Positions 12,001 to 18,000 of a stretch of 64,000 nucleotides of DNA are shown here, piece by piece. How positions within the stretch are numbered: the first letter of the stretch is position 1; each line of letters begins with the position of its first letter. Position numbers and translations under genes: made by a program. Source of the DNA: Candidatus Omnitrophota bacterium (GTDB lineage: Bacteria > Omnitrophota > Gorgyraeia > Gygaellales > Profunditerraquicolaceae). Location of the stretch: NCBI GenBank assembly GCA_030693145.1, contig JAUYBI010000041.1:10228-74227 (forward strand). Reading direction: 5' to 3'. The notes beneath the pieces were generated by a model. It saw only the letters and a list, made by a program, of their open reading frames with translations. It was not told where the DNA came from and did no database searches.

Positions 12001-15000
12001 GTTATGATTGGTATGTGAACAACGTAGTAGATAATCCATCCTTAATTGAAAAGTTAGGCTTAGGGTATTTCAAGCTTCTGATTAACAAATATAAGGAACA
12101 GGCTGAGAAAGATAACCTTCTCCTTAACAGCGAGGAAAGGTTCCCTGTCAGAGACGATGACGGCTCCAAACTTAAAGTCAATGGACAAGAAAAAGATAAT
12201 CTCATGATAAGAGAATATCTGTCTGCTAAGACTGAACAGCTTCTTGAAGCGCTCTACCAAAAACCTAAGCCTGAAATTAGGACTGACCACGGAGCATCCT
12301 CCAATGAAGCCAAGAAGTCCCGCGGGCCATTAATATACACAGAAGAAGAGGTAATCACCTTAAGAAATAAAGCCCGGAACCTTAAGATTCATAAAGATTT
12401 ATTCTTGGCAGGCATAGAATTCTCACCGCCCAGAGAAGCAGGTAAATCCGCCGAACCCAAGATAGGCTTCCTTAAAGAGAATACCGAGGGGGTATTTGAG
12501 GAGATATTTGAAGAGAGCTTGAGGGATGGAGGCGTAAACGTTGAGCAGGAAATTGGCGAGAAGTTCTATAAAGACGATAAGATAATTATTCAGACAGCTA
12601 ATGGCAGGGTAATAAAGGATGGAGGAGTTCTGGATGAGATCAAATTCAAGCTTTTTCTCTTAAGTTTAATGCGGTCTACAGAGAAAGATATGCTGGAAAG
12701 AAATTCGCGGCCGGAATCCCTGAGTAATAAAGAAAATGAGCTTTTTTTGAGAATTCATAAAGAAATCAGGAAATATTCTTTGGGTAGCATTAAGAGAGTT
12801 TCTGTTTCGTATAAGGAAAATAAGGACACGTATGGGTATACCATGGCATTGGTTCTTCCTTTCGAGAATGATGAGGCTGGTAAATATATTGCGCGTCCTG
12901 AATCGTTAGATGAAGCGGGGCAGATTCTTGTCTTTAAAAGGTTTCTGGAGAACATAGTTTATATTGAGTCGGTTGATCCGCTTTTCGCCAAACGTATCAT
13001 TGACGCAGTTATGATTCATGAAGAAGGCCATTTTAAGGCGTTTATGGAAAGTAATACCGGAAATGATCCCCAAGATAAGGTTGAGCAGGAACAGATTGCA
13101 ACGCGATATGTCTTGAGACAAAGGGATGGACTGGCCCTTTTGGCTTATTTTGTCTGGTATCAGATATTCATGATGCCGTTATATAAAAATGGGGATACTG
13201 ATTTTATAATCAGGGATGCCAGCTTGAGCATTAATTATGGATTTTATACCACCGGGAATGAATATAAAAACCGAATATTGGTGACTCTTGTGCTTGAATT
13301 GGATAAGAAATTCGGAAAAATTCTGAGAGAAATTCGGAGAGATGGAGGGGAGTTGTGTAATAAAGAATCTGTAATTTTTCCCCAAAAGCATATTCTTGAA
13401 GTTACTCGTGAAGAATTTCTAAAAGAGATGGTAAATTCCGGTTTCTACCGCCCGGGTTATTTTGGTAGTAAACGTTCAGAAATTACAAAAATATTAAATG
13501 AATGGCTAGGAGAAGGGATGTGGGAAGAGCGGCACATAATAGAAGGTAAATTAGTCTATATAGGGGAGGCTTTAATTTATTATTATGAAGAAGCTTATTA
13601 TAATTTCTTCTTAAATAATCCGGAACAACTTGAATGGCTTTTAAGCATGGCTGGTGATGTTTATGATACCGCTCCCAGTAATGTTATGAGCGGATTAGAT
13701 TATGGTATTCAGGAAACCCCTAACACACATTATCAGGATATAGCTATAAGAAGAGTAATAAAAAGTTTAGGAAAAGAGTTTAAAGGTGACCATTTAGTTC
13801 AAGTTAGAGGTAGAGGAACAGAGGGTGAATTATTAAGCCCCGGCGTAATCGCGTTTCATCTGCCGGGATTAATTTCACAGCCTGCGATAAAGGGATGGTG
13901 GATGGAAGGCAGTATTGAAGATTTTTGGCAAAGCAGCAAGGTGATTGTAATCAAAGAAAGAGATGTTACTTTTAAAATAATAAGCAAAGATTTTTCTGTA
14001 AGGGGCATACTTGAACAGGGCTGTATAGCTTTTGATTTCAATGGCACAATCTACGATAAAAATAACAAAAAATTAGGGGAAGGAATCGCTCAAGGGTTAA
14101 TTAATCTGCTAAACTCAGGATTTAGAGTGATTATCATTACGAATAACAAAATAGATGATCTATTAGGCAATAAGGGTAGGTTAATAACTAATGACGGTAG
14201 GTTTATTCTTGATTTAGTGCAAGAAAGTAATCTTAGTAATTTTATTATATATGCGGACAATAGAACCAAAAAATATATTTATGAACAAAATAAAAAAGAG
14301 ATGCAGGAGGTTAAAGATTACCGCAAAGGATTTACTTCAGAAGAGAAAAAGCAGGAAATTTGGAAAAAACTTCAAGGAGCAATGGTGCGCCTTTCTCAAG
14401 ATAATAATATTCTGCTGCCCGTTTTTGAGCTAAAAGACAAAGATACTCAGATTCGGATAGATATAGTTTTAGATGAAAAAGATAGCAATTATGTTAAGGG
14501 GAAATTAGAAGAAGAAATAAATGATGAGAGTTTTGAGGTTCATCCGGCGAATACGGGCATTTATATTTTACGAAACGGCTTAGATAAATCTATTTGCGTA
14601 GAGGATGCTATTGCAACCTTAGGTTTAAATCCAAAATATTTTATTTACCTTGCAGACAGATTTATTAAAGGCACGAAAGAAGATAATGTTGTAGTTGAGA
14701 AGAACGGCGTAATAGGCATAAATATAGGAGAAAAAGATAGAGATAAGTTAGCCGATAGCGTTATAGATTATGGAAAAAAGATCGAAGGAACAAGAGAGAT
14801 CATTGAATTAATAAAGAAAAATTTTGATTTATTTAAGAAGCAACGCGATAGCGGCAAAAAAATAACATCCAAAGCCATTAGCCAACAGTCAAACGAAGTT
14901 TCTTTTGACGCAATGCGAGCAGCCGACGGCGGAAGTATTTTTGATTTGTTCCGAAAGAAAAATACCATCATTGATTATGTTAAGAACGGGGATAGCTATC

Positions 15001-18000
15001 TTGAGAAGGGAAAATGGGAAGAAGCCGAAAAGGAATGCAAGAAAGCATTAAAGATAGATAGTTCATTCCAGGATGCATTGAGGGGTTACGCGATGTCGTT
15101 AAAAGGGCAAGATTTAAGAAATAGGGGAGTTCGCCCAATGGTTCTCCAGGCTTATTTAATGAATTGTCTTTCTGAAAAACGCGATGTAAGAAATAAACTG
15201 ACATATGATGAAAAGGATATGTTAGGGTATTTAATTCTTCAAAGTCGGGAATTAAAAATTACCGGATTAACTACTCCTGTTATGGTAGTCGAAGATGTCG
15301 ATAAAATTCAGAATAGAACTATGGCTTTCGCGGGATCAGTAGATCTGTCAGCAGAATCTTTAATATTTATATTATTCCGGAGATTTATTGAGAAAATAAC
15401 TGAAGTTCGCCGTGTCTGTCCGGAATTGGCTTATGAGATTATAGAGGCTATTTTATTGCATGAAAAAGGACATCTTCTAACTAAGGAACTAACTGATGAA
15501 GAAGTCGCTGAGAAGTATATGCGGGAGAAAATGGGGCCGAGGGGGGAAGTAGTGAATACTTGGTTTAAAATATACAGTAATTTTATATATGAAACCGAGT
15601 TTGTGAATGAAAAGCTGATTATATTAATGGTTAATAATCGGTTAGCAGAAGGGCAGATGAGGAACTTTTATTTTTCGAGAGAGGTTGAACAAATAAAATC
15701 AGATGTATTAAAGTTGAACGCTGAATTTAGTGTTCGTAAGAAGAACAGATTTTTGAGTGATGGCGGGGTAAACGTCGAACAGGAAATTGGCGAGAAGTTC
15801 TATAAAGACGATAAGATAATTATTCAGACAGCTAATAACAAGGTAATAAGGGATAATTACAAAGATTTATTTTTAGAAGCCAGGCAAAACGGTTCTATTA
15901 AGTTTGGGTTGAGCCAAGAGGCTGTGAACTATTTTAATTTAATCGAACTAAGCGAATTTAAGAGAATCATTCGTGAACAAAGGGTTACGGATACACTTAA
16001 TAAGAATAGGAAGAAAGGTTTTGCTGTTACTATTGTAGCGGGATTTCCGTTTGGAGAACACAATAATCATTATGGAGAATTTAAGCAAAAAATTGAAGAT
16101 GCCCGCAGGGAAATTAGAAGGATAACAAACGGGAAAGTGGAATTTAATGAAGAAGAAGGCGTTAATGCTTTACATATGACTATTCAAGCTATTACCCGCA
16201 CCGCAGAATTCAAAGAAAAAGATATAGATTCTATGCGTAAGACGCTCGAGAAGATTAAGAGGATAGTAACAATGATTCAGGAAAATCTCTCTAGGAATTT
16301 GCCTGTGATATCTGAGAGTTTGGCTGCGGCCGGCAGAGCTTCTTCCGGTGCAGAAATAAAAGCTAAATTGGCAGAAGCCCTTGTCCGGACACAGAAAGCT
16401 ATTGAAGAAACGAATAAAATTTCTGATAAATTTCCTAATCGCGCATTTAAAGATATCGAGGCAGGCCTTAACGGACTTATTAAATTAGATCAAGAAGTTT
16501 TAGCTGAGCATAGGAATAGGATTGAAGAATTAGGAGCCAAAGCTTCGATAAATATTCAAGGCGAGCCGATAGTTGACTTGGAGACTGCTTTAGCGGTGAT
16601 GGCTCAGACGCATAAGCCGTTTAAGGTTAAGATCGCAAATTTAGCATATTTTGACGGAGATGGAGAAATATCGTTCCATCTTGAGCCGGGAAGTGAATAT
16701 ATAGAAGAAAAAGAGGGGAAGAAACTTAATATAAAGAAAACCTTCTCATTGTTACCTACCGAGGATAAAGGCAGCTTGAGGATACACGTCAGTTTTGGAA
16801 GAGTTACTTCCGCGATTACTGATGAGCAAATAGCGGAGATTAACGGCCTTTTCACAAAATTGAATATAAATACATTAGAGCCTTTTCTAATGGATGAGTT
16901 AAAAATTGTTATGTACGCTCATCGCAGCCTCAATGAGGTGATTGGGTTGATAGCGTTAAAACTAGGAGAAGAAAACCGAAAACCTGACCTTGAAAAACTG
17001 TATAAGGCCACGGAAGATTATATTGCTTTAAATATTGTAAATGATTTTCTTGCCGCGCAAGCTGCTGATTGCCGGAAAGAGCCGGAGAATGTTCATGTGA
17101 AATATACGAAAGAGGAAAAAGCGATTCTTAGGGCGCAGAAAACGTTAGAGGTAAAGATAGGGGAAATCGAAAATGATTTACTTGGTGGTAATAATGGCGC
17201 ATTAGAGAGGCTTTTGCCGCTTGGGGATAAATTAACCTTAGTTCTTAAGGCTAGAGAGAAATTCATTAAGCTGGGGGTTCCCGCGTATCACGCCCATACT
17301 AATTTAGAAGACGACGGAAAGCTTACGCCTGAAGAATTAGTTGAACACGCGATAAATAATGGAATCACGGTTCTTTATGTCACTGGTCACAATAGATTAA
17401 CCGGTTCGCTTAAGGCAATGGAATCTGCCAAGAAGTTAGATTATATTTTAGATATGCGTCCTGCCGCGGAGATAGATATGCATTTTATGGATGGAAAAGC
17501 GGTCGTGCATATTATTGTAACCGGTTCCCATGATTCAGAGGTGATCCAGGGGATGTCAAAAATCGGCAAAGATATTTTTAATTCCATGCAGGGGAATTTA
17601 AAATGGAGATTGAATAGGATAATAGGGTTAGGTATTTCGCAGGAGTTTGATAATGAATGGCAAAGATTATCAGCACAACCTGATTCGGAAAAAGAGTTGT
17701 TAAAAATCGCAAGATACCTTAAAAATAACAATTTGCTGGGTAATTCAGGCGGCTTAGAAGAACTAAAGTTGACATTGAGAGAATGGTTTGGTAATGTTAA
17801 GGCATTTGTTGATTCGCATCCGGCAATAAAAACAAAAGAGTTATACAATAAACGCTATGTTTTAGGCAGGTGGACAGACGATTTGGAAAAGTGGCCTTCA
17901 AAAGAAAATCCGATTTGGCGTTCAGCGGTATCTACGCGTAGAAGAGCAATGAGGAACTACTTTGGTTTACTTTATTCCGATGAGGAGATCGAAGAAAAGT

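What the first reader, a model, noticed from the sequence alone, without database searches (positions are those of the whole stretch)
12525..15850. Near-identical 85-nt mini-module repeated 3.2 kb apart, each time directly after a DGG
The sequence gtaaacgt(t/c)ga(g/a)caggaaattggcgagaagttctataaagacgataagataattattcagacagctaat... occurs at 12534-12617 and 15768-15850, with only a few mismatches. This is far more similar than any other paralogous pair in the window. Copy 1 is a complete 28-codon module between two DGGs (12525 and 12618) and precedes HExGH module A. Copy 2 follows HExGH module B. This suggests recent duplication or gene conversion, and points to a small element that travels with the HExGH modules.
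Basis: seen in the sequence. Interest (0 to 1): 0.6.

Follow-up and report, generated by a model that had tools for sequence, protein, structure and literature searches.

The report
Duplicated linker flanking inserted gene modules
The two near-identical 85-base stretches are one original linker inside a giant bacterial (Omnitrophota-type) gene that ended up on both sides of a 3.1-kb block of three extra enzyme modules, so they are a footprint of how such giant genes grow and not a small travelling element.

Summary
The repeat is real. Positions 12519-12620 and 15753-15854 are 93/102 identical (E 2e-34), in frame, and there are exactly two copies. The whole window is one stop-free reading frame, the interior of an Omnitrophota-type multi-enzyme giant gene. 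In it, DGG (mostly GACGGCGG) punctuates the linkers between enzyme modules.

At seven junctions in related Omnitrophota giant genes, the CofD-like module (ending at 12524 here) joins directly to the module that starts here at 15768. With 12621-15752 spliced out, the window aligns colinearly with those relatives, and the 28-residue mini-module aligns with their native linker.

So the two copies are one ancestral linker segment, duplicated on either side of a 3,132-nt in-frame insertion of three modules: HExGH A, an unknown domain plus a HAD-like region, and HExGH B. Copy 1 is an orphaned linker piece. It looks like a module only because the insert brought its own DGG. Copy 2 is still the N-terminal element of its module.

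It does not travel with HExGH modules. The third HExGH module lacks it, and no other copy was found in the window or the collections searched. How the duplication arose is unresolved; the candidates are template switching, recombination, and later gene conversion.

The parts
3..63998 (+). Single uninterrupted reading frame of 21,332 codons with no stop. It is the interior of a giant multi-enzyme gene and the context for everything below.
   Evidence: Pfam finds a chain of ordinary enzymes.
10050..12524 (+). Module A: CofD-like (2-phospho-L-lactate transferase family) module and its C-terminal tail. It is the native upstream neighbour of the linker. The DGG at 10389 is part of the conserved SIDDGGxTFKM motif of this domain, not a boundary.
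   Evidence: Pfam CofD. It is 41-59% identical to CofD-like modules of Omnitrophota giant genes.
12525..12533 (+). DGG (GATGGAGGC) before copy 1. It lies in a 6-residue insertion that relatives lack.
12534..12617 (+). Copy 1 of the 28-codon mini-module (R1). The full repeat runs 12519-12620. It is an orphaned duplicate of the native A-to-B linker segment.
12621..15752 (+). Inserted block X: 3,132 nt (1,044 codons) lying between the two repeat copies. It is absent from the same junction in all relatives examined.
   Evidence: blastp of relatives against the window. Alignment of the spliced window with relatives. P0152 and P0153 sequences. Tree.
12627..13340 (+). HExGH module A (238 aa, motif HEEGH): left-end module of X. 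The DGG at 12618-12626 (GATGGAGGA) forms its left border.
   Evidence: No Pfam, NCBIfam, PHROG or PDB sequence match for the HExGH region.
13350..14924 (+). Middle module of X. It holds a widely conserved domain of unknown function (about 13440-13958) and a region with only sub-threshold HAD-family matches (about 13995-14825). It is bounded by DGG at 13341 and 14925.
   Evidence: 389 homologues in the representative search, all matching these two stretches. Weak HAD hits, all below the curated cut-offs. blastp against P0003, P0005 and P0007.
14934..15758 (+). HExGH module B (275 aa, motif HEKGH, with an N-terminal TPR-like stretch): right-end module of X. It is 26% identical to module A.
15759..15767 (+). 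DGG (GATGGCGGG) before copy 2. It was probably contributed by the right end of X.
15768..15851 (+). Copy 2 of the mini-module (R2). The full repeat runs 15753-15854. It is still joined to its native downstream module and is predicted as a helix plus beta-hairpin.
   Evidence: AlphaFold2 model: pLDDT 59-79 over the mini-module and below 50 at and before the DGG.
15852..18626 (+). Module B, the native downstream neighbour. The N-terminal part (to about 17000) is homologous to the module that follows CofD directly in relatives, and has two HxT/S motifs. After it comes a PHP-domain region paralogous to 8475-10020.

Best explanation
The two copies are one ancestral linker segment, duplicated on both sides of an insertion.

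**Ancestral state.** In the ancestor, as in today's relatives, the CofD-like module A was fused directly to module B through a linker of about 60-70 residues.

**The insertion.** In this lineage a 3,132-nt in-frame block of three DGG-bounded modules was inserted into that linker. The modules are HExGH A, an unknown domain plus a HAD-like region, and HExGH B. About 87-100 nt of the linker, from the DGG to the Asp codon 29 codons later, ended up on both sides.

**What each copy is now.**
- Copy 1 keeps the native upstream junction (A-DGG-R).
- Copy 2 keeps the native downstream junction (R-DNYKDLF...).
- The two new joints are R1|GGAGGA (12620/12621) and ...TTGAGTGATGGCGGG|GTA (15753-15767).
- Because the block carried DGG codons at both ends, copy 1 became a 28-residue piece between two DGGs and so looks like a module.

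**Shown:** the repeat, its exact flanking position, the direct A-to-B adjacency in relatives, the colinearity of the spliced window, and the low divergence of the copies.

**Inferred:**
- The direction (a gain here), from parsimony on a tree.
- The mechanism. The most likely route is replication template switching, or illegitimate recombination, at the GAT-GG / TTGAGnGATGGnGG microhomologies supplied by the DGG codons. A short gene-conversion tract probably refreshed the central 57 nt later.
- That copy 1 has no function of its own beyond acting as a spacer.
For: 1. **The repeat flanks X exactly, with sharp homology ends**.
2. **Relatives join A to B directly.** This holds at all seven junctions where the sequence downstream of the CofD-like module is visible among the relatives that carry module B: L001, L002, L004, L005 (two units), P0152 and P0153. 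All those with a named source are Candidatus Omnitrophota. Each junction goes straight on to the homologue of window 15850-17000, with no HExGH, unknown-domain or HAD module between.
3. **The spliced window is colinear with relatives.** Window A (to 12524) joined to 15759 onwards aligns with them. The mini-module aligns with their linker (GVTDYASVVTKAYQQVLK...), and the residues after R2 ([12 protein letters not shown]) align with theirs (GNFEYVFTTLRP). BLAST of the second L005 unit runs through R1, to window 12665.
4. **The tree favours a gain.** On a neighbour-joining tree of the CofD-like modules the window sits next to P0152 and inside the clade of relatives that lack X. A gain here is therefore more parsimonious than repeated losses.
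5. **The copies are young.** dS is 0.14-0.26, against 0.76 for the PGI pair, 1.9 for the PHP-region pair, and saturation for HExGH A/B.
6. **The same topology recurs.** A repeat, then DGG-bounded modules, then the repeat again occurs twice more in the window: 43145-43233 / 45473-45561 and 45987-46014 / 47178-47205.
7. **The structure model fits.** AlphaFold2 places R2 as an ordered helix plus hairpin leading into module B, with the DGG and upstream tail disordered. That fits R being part of B's N-terminal region.
Against: - **No close relative and no reads.** The nearest relative is only 59% identical in protein sequence, and there is no read data. An empty site in a near-identical genome was not seen, and no donor copy of X was found.
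- **Loss in relatives is not excluded.** Recombination between the R copies would leave the same A-R-B arrangement. The case against this rests on parsimony and on the youth of the R pair.
- **Weak linker similarity.** The mini-module resembles the relatives' linkers only weakly. Its homology is positional, within a colinear alignment, and is not significant on its own.
- **Non-random differences.** The differences between the copies are clustered (P about 0.003). A simple 'duplicate then drift' history is therefore incomplete.
- **Unusual repeat length.** A 100-nt flanking duplication is far longer than classical target-site duplications, so the mechanism is conjecture.
- **The other two cases are unverified.** The two further repeat-block-repeat cases could not be checked against relatives.
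Confidence: 0.75

Rival explanations
1. Block X is ancestral at this junction and was lost in the relatives by recombination between the two R copies. Alternatively, the two R copies descend from two tandem CofD-B units. In either case the copies look young only because gene conversion keeps them alike.
For: - A pop-out between direct repeats leaves exactly A-R-B, which is what relatives show.
- Tandem CofD-B units exist in relatives (L005, P0152).
- The identical 57-nt core with edges about 80% identical is what a conversion tract on an older duplication would look like.
Against: - The window is nested among seven X-less junctions on the CofD tree, including its nearest neighbour. That would require several independent losses.
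- A and B have no close paralogues in the window. The only unit-level paralogy (PHP regions) is old: 49% amino-acid identity, dS 1.9.
- No relative shows any remnant of X at the junction.
Confidence: 0.12
2. The mini-module is a small functional or mobile unit that accompanies HExGH modules. It could be, for example, a docking or recognition peptide, or a peptide released by cleavage at DGG.
For: - Both copies abut an HExGH module and a DGG.
- Copy 1 is bounded by DGG on both sides.
- Amino-acid changes are few and conservative.
Against: - The third HExGH module has none.
- The orientation relative to HExGH differs: before A, after B.
- The sequence is positionally homologous to the A-to-B linker of relatives that have no HExGH module there.
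- No third copy was found in the window, among the 150 relatives retrieved, or in the genome, metagenome and viral collections.
- No Pfam or NCBIfam match.
Confidence: 0.05
3. The repeat is an assembly artefact: a chimeric join of two loci or strains through a shared repeat, so that A-R-X-R-B does not exist as such.
For: - The window probably comes from a metagenome assembly. No closed genome match was found, and all named relatives are metagenome-assembled genomes.
- Repeats of about 57 identical bases can mislead short-k assemblers.
- No read data are available.
Against: - The copies differ at 9 of 102 positions, so they are not a collapsed repeat.
- Any chimera would still require R next to X in a real molecule on at least one side.
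- Both native junctions (A-R1 and R2-B) match relatives.
- The frame stays open through 21,332 codons.
Confidence: 0.05
4. The nucleotide sequence itself is functional, as an RNA structure, an internal promoter, terminator or ribosome site, or a protein-binding site. On this reading it is conserved at the DNA level for that reason.
For: A 57-nt perfectly identical core, more than random drift predicts.
Against: - No stable or shared fold on either strand: z-scores from -0.12 to +2.0, and the two copies fold differently.
- No Rfam family anywhere in the window.
- No excess of promoter-like or terminator-like sites.
- Only two copies.
Confidence: 0.03

Closest known systems
Omnitrophota giant genes of the 'multi-enzyme metabolic cluster' / Archaeovorin type (West-Roberts et al. 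2023, bioRxiv 10.1101/2023.11.21.568195; Nielsen & Lui 2026, bioRxiv 10.64898/2026.06.07.730766; Seymour et al. 2023, PMC10066038)
   Same: - One stop-free frame longer than 64 kb.
- Many different ordinary enzyme domains tiled along it: PGI, PGM/PMM, hexokinase, radical SAM, kinases, methyltransferases and HEAT repeats.
- The nearest relatives are Candidatus Omnitrophota MAG proteins and are also open end to end.
- Those papers already propose proteolytic processing, based on C39 and subtilisin domains, but state that the cleavage points are unknown.
   Different: - In the text searches run here, none of these papers mentioned DGG/GACGGCGG punctuation.
- The only nucleotide-repeat analysis those searches turned up concerns tandem repeats and concludes that repeats are old. 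They showed no flanking direct repeats around module insertions.
- No dockerin, TSP3 or C39 domain lies in this window.
Direct repeats flanking inserted DNA: transposon target-site duplications, and Campbell-type single-crossover integration of a circular molecule
   Same: An inserted block bracketed by two direct copies of what was a single target sequence.
   Different: - The repeat is about 90-100 nt, far longer than classical target-site duplications of 2-14 bp (established knowledge).
- No transposase or integrase domain was found in X.
- No terminal inverted repeats were found.
- The insert is in frame and made of ordinary enzyme modules.
- A Campbell-type event would need a circle that already carried R.
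Module gain by recombination in inter-module linkers of megasynthases (NRPS/PKS), and domain shuffling generally
   Same: Whole folded modules are added in frame at linkers, leaving neighbouring modules intact. Short conserved boundary sequences can serve as recombination points.
   Different: - The modules here are unrelated stand-alone-type enzymes, not an assembly line with carrier domains.
- The boundary signal is a three-residue DGG, not a conserved docking or linker domain.
Polyproteins and precursors cleaved after Gly-Gly (C39 double-glycine leader peptidases; ubiquitin-like and viral papain-like proteases)
   Same: - A Gly-Gly pair recurs between functional units: 53 DGG against 5.8 expected.
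- None of the 53 falls inside a Pfam domain envelope.
- The DGG before R2 lies in a low-confidence (pLDDT below 50) stretch of the one model made.
   Different: - The double-glycine leader consensus, with hydrophobic residues at -4, -7, -12 and -15, is not seen.
- No C39 or other protease domain was identified in the window.
- Cleavage is untested.
- At least one DGG (10389) is simply part of a conserved enzyme motif.

Membership tests
Omnitrophota giant multi-enzyme gene | Uninterrupted ORF far above 20 kb | tested here: met
   21,332 codons with no stop, running off both ends of the window.
Omnitrophota giant multi-enzyme gene | Many distinct enzyme Pfam families tiled along the protein, with none dominating by copy number | tested here: met
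   Pfam hits span more than 25 distinct families (about 28 non-redundant domain envelopes in the window). Only PGI and PHP matched two separate modules.
Omnitrophota giant multi-enzyme gene | Omnitrophota origin | tested here: inconclusive
   The source organism is not given and was not found in the collections. Most of the closest relatives whose records name an organism are Candidatus Omnitrophota/Omnitrophica MAGs, at 41-59% identity. One distant locus (L004) is labelled uncultured Planctomycetales and one (L001) only 'Bacterium'.
Transposable element with target-site duplication | Transposase or integrase gene, or terminal inverted repeats at the ends of the insert | tested here: not met
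   X has only weak TPR-like and sub-threshold HAD-like matches, plus domains without any match. No inverted repeat pairs the ends of X.
Transposable element with target-site duplication | Short flanking duplication of fixed length (2-14 bp) | tested here: not met
   The flanking repeat is 87-102 nt.
Structured RNA / Rfam family | Conserved secondary structure, or a match to a curated covariance model | tested here: not met
   Fold z-scores run from -0.12 to +2.0 and the structures differ between the copies. There are 0 Rfam matches in the window.
Double-glycine (C39-type) processing site | Gly-Gly at positions -2 and -1 of the site | tested here: met
   53 DGG, 30 of them the exact octamer GACGGCGG.
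Double-glycine (C39-type) processing site | Leader-like upstream consensus with conserved hydrophobic positions | tested here: not met
   There is only weak enrichment of K/R/S before the DGG and no periodic hydrophobic pattern.
Double-glycine (C39-type) processing site | A cognate C39 peptidase domain, and demonstrated cleavage | not testable with these tools
   No C39 domain lies in the window. The gene continues beyond both ends. Cleavage needs proteomics.
Zincin metallopeptidase (for the HExGH modules) | HExxH motif plus a third zinc ligand in a zincin fold | tested here: inconclusive
   HExGH and a conserved Glu about 20 residues later are invariant in the 3 paralogues. There is no Pfam, NCBIfam, PHROG or PDB sequence match for the HExGH region. 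There are no homologues in 5.8 billion proteins. The AlphaFold2 model has pLDDT 42 and is unusable.
2H phosphoesterase (for module B, which carries copy 2) | Two HxT/S motifs in a 2H fold | tested here: inconclusive
   The motifs ALHMTIQ and IHVSFGR are conserved in relatives. There is no Pfam hit and no significant Foldseek match to the PDB.

The most novel reading that the evidence does not exclude
DGG, written mostly as the in-frame octamer GACGGCGG, may be the long-sought processing signal of this lineage of giant proteins. On this reading the giant protein is a bacterial polyprotein, cut after Gly-Gly into dozens of ordinary enzymes, and DGG-bounded cassettes are also the units that are shuffled into the gene. 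The repeat studied here would then be the freshest footprint of such a cassette insertion. Copy 1 would be released as a free peptide of about 31 residues, either a spacer peptide or a new product.
Probability: 0.25. Interest if true: 0.8.

Novelty: new member of a known kind. Interest (0 to 1): 0.42.

Why it matters
Giant Omnitrophota genes, at 60 to over 400 kb, are a recognised puzzle. It is not known how they are built or whether the proteins are cut up.

This repeat gives a dated, base-resolved example of one growth step. A three-module block was spliced in frame into a conserved linker, with the target duplicated on both sides. Two older look-alike cases lie in the same window. That complements the published conclusion that most internal repeats in these genes are too old to show nucleotide footprints.

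The surrounding DGG/GACGGCGG punctuation is absent from homologous linkers of relatives. It offers concrete candidate cleavage points that proteomics could test directly, something earlier work said was missing.

For the finding as stated, the result is sobering. There is no small travelling element, only an orphaned piece of linker.

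Tried and rejected
- **RNA element:** folding both copies on both strands showed no stable or shared structure. Rfam gave no match over the whole window.
- **Regulatory signals:** the promoter and terminator scan of 12000-16500 found nothing above shuffles.
- **More copies, nucleotide level:** blastn of the window against itself and a 41-mer with 3 mismatches gave only the two.
- **More copies, protein level:** a sliding Smith-Waterman scan gave a best third hit of 42, inside the null range of 32-44. The apparent likeness to the N-terminus of module 7470 scored 25, which is noise.
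- **Public collections, direct query:** the genome and metagenome scans with 12303-16502, whose patterns included EKFYKDDK, found nothing. The viral contig scan with the 57-nt core found nothing. A protein search with the same stretch hit only the unknown domain.
- **HExGH family:** the three-paralogue profile found no homologue in 5.8 billion proteins, in relatives, or among PDB sequences beyond TPR noise. NCBIfam and PHROGs gave nothing. The AlphaFold2 model was too poor to use (pLDDT 42), so I ran no fold search on it.
- **Fold of module B:** Foldseek against the PDB gave no significant match and was dominated by a helical insert.
- **Foreign origin of X by composition:** GC3 is 0.327, the 8th percentile of same-size windows. 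It is not an outlier.
- **DGG as a Shine-Dalgarno by-product:** only 8 of 53 sites contain GGAGG, and no in-frame start codon follows at the sites read by eye. Rejected (read directly).
- **The 22-nt match KDLFLAGI / KDLFLEAR (12393 vs 15861):** each belongs to a different conserved module in relatives, so it is a chance match.
- **Metagenome relatives L006 and L007:** they are too distant (41%) and have a different module after CofD, so they say nothing about this junction.

Full report
**1. The observation**

The repeat is real. The repeat finder reports 12519-12620 and 15753-15854 as a 102-nt direct repeat at 91% identity. A blastn of the window against itself gives 91.2% over 102 nt with E 2e-34. 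A 41-nt core occurs exactly twice even with three mismatches allowed, against none in shuffles.

The start-to-start distance is 3234 nt, or 1078 codons. Both copies encode almost the same 28 residues:
- [28 protein letters not shown]
- [28 protein letters not shown]

Both are directly preceded by Asp-Gly-Gly. Copy 1 is also followed by DGG. Similarity begins at TTGAG-GATGG and ends abruptly at the GAT codon 12618-12620 / 15852-15854. The flanks are unrelated.

One claim is overstated. The two phosphoglucose-isomerase modules (24141-25867 and 29490-31306) are 76-83% identical over 1.8 kb. They contain 93-nt stretches with only 3-4 differences, against 8 for the same span here (DGG + 28 codons, 93 nt).

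**2. The setting**

The whole 64-kb window is a single open frame: + strand, frame 3, 21,332 codons, no stop. Every other frame is full of stops, and no closed ORF of 200 aa or more exists.

Pfam finds a chain of ordinary enzymes along it:
- B12-radical SAM, DegT aminotransferase, APS kinase, PHP, CofD
- PGM/PMM, two PGI, 6-phosphogluconate dehydrogenase, glucosamine-6-P isomerase
- PRK, ARMT1, hexokinase, methyltransferases, histidine phosphatase
- amidohydrolase, OMP decarboxylase, SIS, HEAT

This matches the 'multi-enzyme metabolic cluster' class of giant Omnitrophota proteins (bioRxiv 10.64898/2026.06.07.730766). It also matches the glycolytic domains reported in 'Archaeovorins' (bioRxiv 10.1101/2023.11.21.568195). 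Most relatives whose source records name an organism are Candidatus Omnitrophota MAGs.

DGG occurs 53 times against 5.8 expected. It never falls inside any of 28 Pfam envelopes, where 12.3 would be expected. Thirty of the 53 are the exact octamer GACGGCGG, always in frame on the + strand, against 0.55 expected. So 'directly after a DGG' means 'at a linker between modules'.

Not every DGG is a boundary. The one at 10389 is part of the conserved CofD motif SIDDGGxTFKM.

**3. What the copies are attached to**

Cutting the protein at DGG and comparing the pieces shows three things:
- Copy 2 is the first 28 residues of a 953-aa module (15768-18626).
- Copy 1 stands alone between two DGGs.
- There are three HExGH modules (12627-13340, 14934-15758, 38616-39587), 26-31% identical to each other.

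The third HExGH module has nothing like the mini-module near it. A sensitive scan of the whole protein finds no third copy, even a diverged one: the best score of 42 lies within the null range of 32-44.

**4. The decisive comparison**

The direct searches found no relative of the repeat. An exhaustive HMMER search with 12303-15902 returned 389 proteins, but all matched the unknown domain or the HAD-like region inside the block.

One of them, P0013, also matched the CofD-like module upstream. An alignment of that module (A2) was used to fetch loci from genomes and metagenomes. A spliced query retrieved P0152 and P0153. All genome loci are open from end to end, so they are giant genes.

Seven junctions show the sequence downstream of the CofD-like module in relatives that carry module B: L001, L002, L004, two units of L005, P0152 and P0153. 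In all seven the module is followed directly by the homologue of window 15850-17000. None has an HExGH module, the unknown domain or the HAD-like region in between.

When window 12621-15752 is spliced out, the window aligns colinearly with these relatives:
- The mini-module lines up with their native linker (GVTDYASVVTKAYQQVLK...).
- The residues after copy 2 ([12 protein letters not shown]) line up with theirs (GNFEYVFTTLRP).
- The DGG before the mini-module sits in a six-residue insertion that the relatives lack.

On a neighbour-joining tree of the CofD-like modules, the window is next to P0152 and nested among the relatives that lack the block. The block was therefore most parsimoniously gained in this lineage.

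L006 and L007 are more distant and have another module after CofD. They are uninformative.

**5. Interpretation**

The structure is A-R1-X-R2-B:
- A is the CofD-like module.
- R is the first part of the native A-to-B linker.
- X is a 3,132-nt (1,044-codon) block of three DGG-bounded modules.
- B is the native downstream module.

A-R1 and R2-B are the old junctions. R1|X (GAT|GGAGGA, 12620/12621) and X|R2 (TTGAGTGATGGCGGG|GTA) are the new ones. X brought a DGG at each end, so R1 is now bracketed by two DGGs and mimics a module.

An AlphaFold2 model of DGG + R2 + B was built from three sequences and has mean pLDDT 67.6. It predicts the mini-module as a short helix plus a beta-hairpin leading into B, with pLDDT 59-79. 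The DGG and the preceding tail fall below 50. R is thus plausibly part of B's N-terminal region, and R1 is an orphan.

**6. Age and mechanism**

dS between the copies is 0.14 over the 28 codons and 0.26 with the DGG included. These rest on only 16-18 synonymous sites. The comparison values are 0.76 for the PGI pair, 1.9 for the PHP-region pair, and saturation for HExGH A/B. The duplication of R is therefore young relative to everything around it.

The nine differences are not spread at random. All lie at the edges, leaving 57 identical bases in the centre (P about 0.003-0.004). Three readings fit:
- A short gene-conversion tract refreshed an older duplication. The edges are about 80% identical, like the PGI pair.
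- Recombination took place between copies that had already diverged.
- The edges changed faster next to their new neighbours.

The joints offer microhomology: GAT at the left joint, and 12 of 15 bases (TTGAGnGATGGnGGn) at the right joint. My preferred mechanism is therefore replication template switching, or illegitimate recombination, guided by the DGG codons. This is inference.

A transposon is excluded as far as can be tested. X has no transposase or integrase domain, it has no terminal inverted repeats, and the repeat is far too long for a target-site duplication. The composition of X is unremarkable (GC3 at the 8th percentile).

**7. Other readings**

| Reading | Evidence | Probability |
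|---|---|---|
| RNA or regulatory element | No fold, no Rfam match, no promoter or terminator signal | 0.03 |
| Small element travelling with HExGH modules | Contradicted by points 3 and 4 | 0.05 |
| Assembly artefact | Cannot be excluded without reads. Unlikely, because the copies differ at 9 positions and both native junctions match relatives | 0.05 |
| Loss of X in relatives, with concerted evolution of R | Remains possible | about 0.12 |

**8. A recurring pattern**

Scoring the flanks of all pairs of DGG sites puts this pair far ahead, at 75.5 against a null maximum of 17. It also recovers two more cases with the same repeat-block-repeat topology:
- 43145-43233 / 45473-45561 (77.5% over 89 nt) around 2.2 kb of three DGG-bounded modules.
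- 45987-46014 / 47178-47205 (26 of 28 nt) around 1.2 kb of two modules. Its left copy is an 11-residue DGG-to-DGG mini-module.

I could not check these against relatives. If they are also insertions, in-frame cassette insertion with target duplication is a regular way this gene grows.

**9. DGG in relatives**

DGG punctuation is lineage-specific:
- L005 has 2 DGG in 5,889 residues, against 1.7 expected.
- P0009 has 6 against 0.7 expected, and the Omnitrophota protein P0028 has 3 against 0.17.
- At two homologous linkers the relatives have no DGG. 12525 lies in a six-residue insertion, and 24108 aligns with QAE in L006.

So the motif arose in place in the linkers. It is not a scar of insertion.

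Its codons are strongly biased. Asp is GAC in 68% of sites, against 23% in the gene overall. The first Gly is GGC in 70%, against 31%.

Published work proposes proteolytic processing of these giants but lacks cleavage points. My text searches of these papers found no mention of DGG or of polyproteins in Omnitrophota. That DGG marks cleavage sites is an untested hypothesis, which I put at about 0.25.

**10. Verdict**

The idea of recent duplication or conversion is supported. The 'travelling mini-element' idea is not. The feature is an insertion footprint in a known kind of giant gene: informative about how such genes grow, but not a new kind of element.

Noticed in passing
window 3-63998: The entire 64-kb window is one stop-free reading frame (21,332 codons) that runs off both ends. 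It encodes a chain of ordinary metabolic enzymes.
   Followed up: yes
53 sites, e.g. window 10389, 14925, 21807, 24108 ... 63576: DGG occurs 53 times against 5.8 expected and never inside a Pfam envelope. Thirty sites are the exact in-frame octamer GACGGCGG (0.55 expected, none on the minus strand). The Asp and first-Gly codons are strongly biased to GAC GGC in a gene that otherwise prefers GAT. These are candidate processing sites or linker signals. The cause of the codon bias is unexplained.
   Followed up: partly
L005:2-17668; P0009; P0028; window 12525 and 24108: DGG punctuation is lineage-specific. It is absent from the L005 giant gene (2 against 1.7 expected in 5,889 aa) and enriched in P0009 (6 against 0.7) and P0028 (3 against 0.17). 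At two homologous linkers the relatives lack it: one is a 6-aa insertion here, and the other aligns with 'QAE' in L006.
   Followed up: partly
window 43145-43233 and 45473-45561: A second boundary-spanning repeat (77.5% over 89 nt; ...[25 protein letters not shown]) brackets 2.2 kb of three DGG-bounded modules. The left copy forms a 22-aa DGG-to-DGG mini-module. The topology is the same as in the finding.
   Followed up: partly
window 45987-46014 and 47178-47205: A third case: DGG plus 19 nt (26 of 28 identical; DGG-RKEKAQ / DGG-RQEKAQ) brackets 1.2 kb of two DGG-bounded modules. The left copy forms an 11-aa mini-module.
   Followed up: partly
window 50334, 50925, 51903, 54597: Four DGG sites share a conserved upstream tail, ...(R)SARL-DGG (cgctcagcgcgcctt GACGG). 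It looks like a small family of module C-termini.
   Followed up: no
window 24117-25907 and 29493-31307: Two complete phosphoglucose-isomerase modules, 82% identical in protein over the global alignment (78% in the BLAST alignment) and 76-83% in DNA, with dS 0.76. This is the largest recent internal duplication in the window.
   Followed up: partly
window 8513-9969 and 17069-18558: An older segmental paralogy (72-73% nt, 49% aa over about 520 residues) links the PHP-domain region after APS kinase with the PHP-domain region of the module that carries copy 2.
   Followed up: partly
window 7461-10035 vs L005 (aa 3706-4167 and 5515-5784): In L005 the homologue of window 6117-7403 is followed within about 30 residues by the CofD-like module. 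Here an APS-kinase + PHP block of about 2.6 kb lies between them. This looks like another lineage-specific block, but no flanking repeat was looked for.
   Followed up: no
window 13440-13958: A conserved domain of unknown function of about 170 residues (FYRPGYFG...DIAIRR...GWW...SIEDFWQS). It accounts for most of the 389 hits (E <= 1e-3) in the 1.84-billion-protein representative library. In other proteins it is fused to PfkB-like kinase and NadD-like adenylyltransferase regions (P0032, P0047, P0060, P0072).
   Followed up: no
window 52563-53111: blastn self-hits at offsets of about 114, 225, 339 and 456 nt (67-74% identity) suggest a diverged tandem array of about 38-residue units. Tandem Repeats Finder did not call it.
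   Followed up: no
P0152 (4,011-nt contig): This contig, from the window's closest relative, begins and ends with nearly identical CofD-like sequence. Either CofD-B units are tandemly repeated at high identity, or the contig wraps around a repeat.
   Followed up: no
window 34128-34448 and P0013 aa 885-1020, 2089-2230: A domain of about 110 residues ending ...IHPSYFDNR just before the DGG at 34449 recurs three times in P0013. There it is followed by a YHE(L/Y)(V/I)SH motif that resembles the HExGH modules. No significant profile match linked the two.
   Followed up: no
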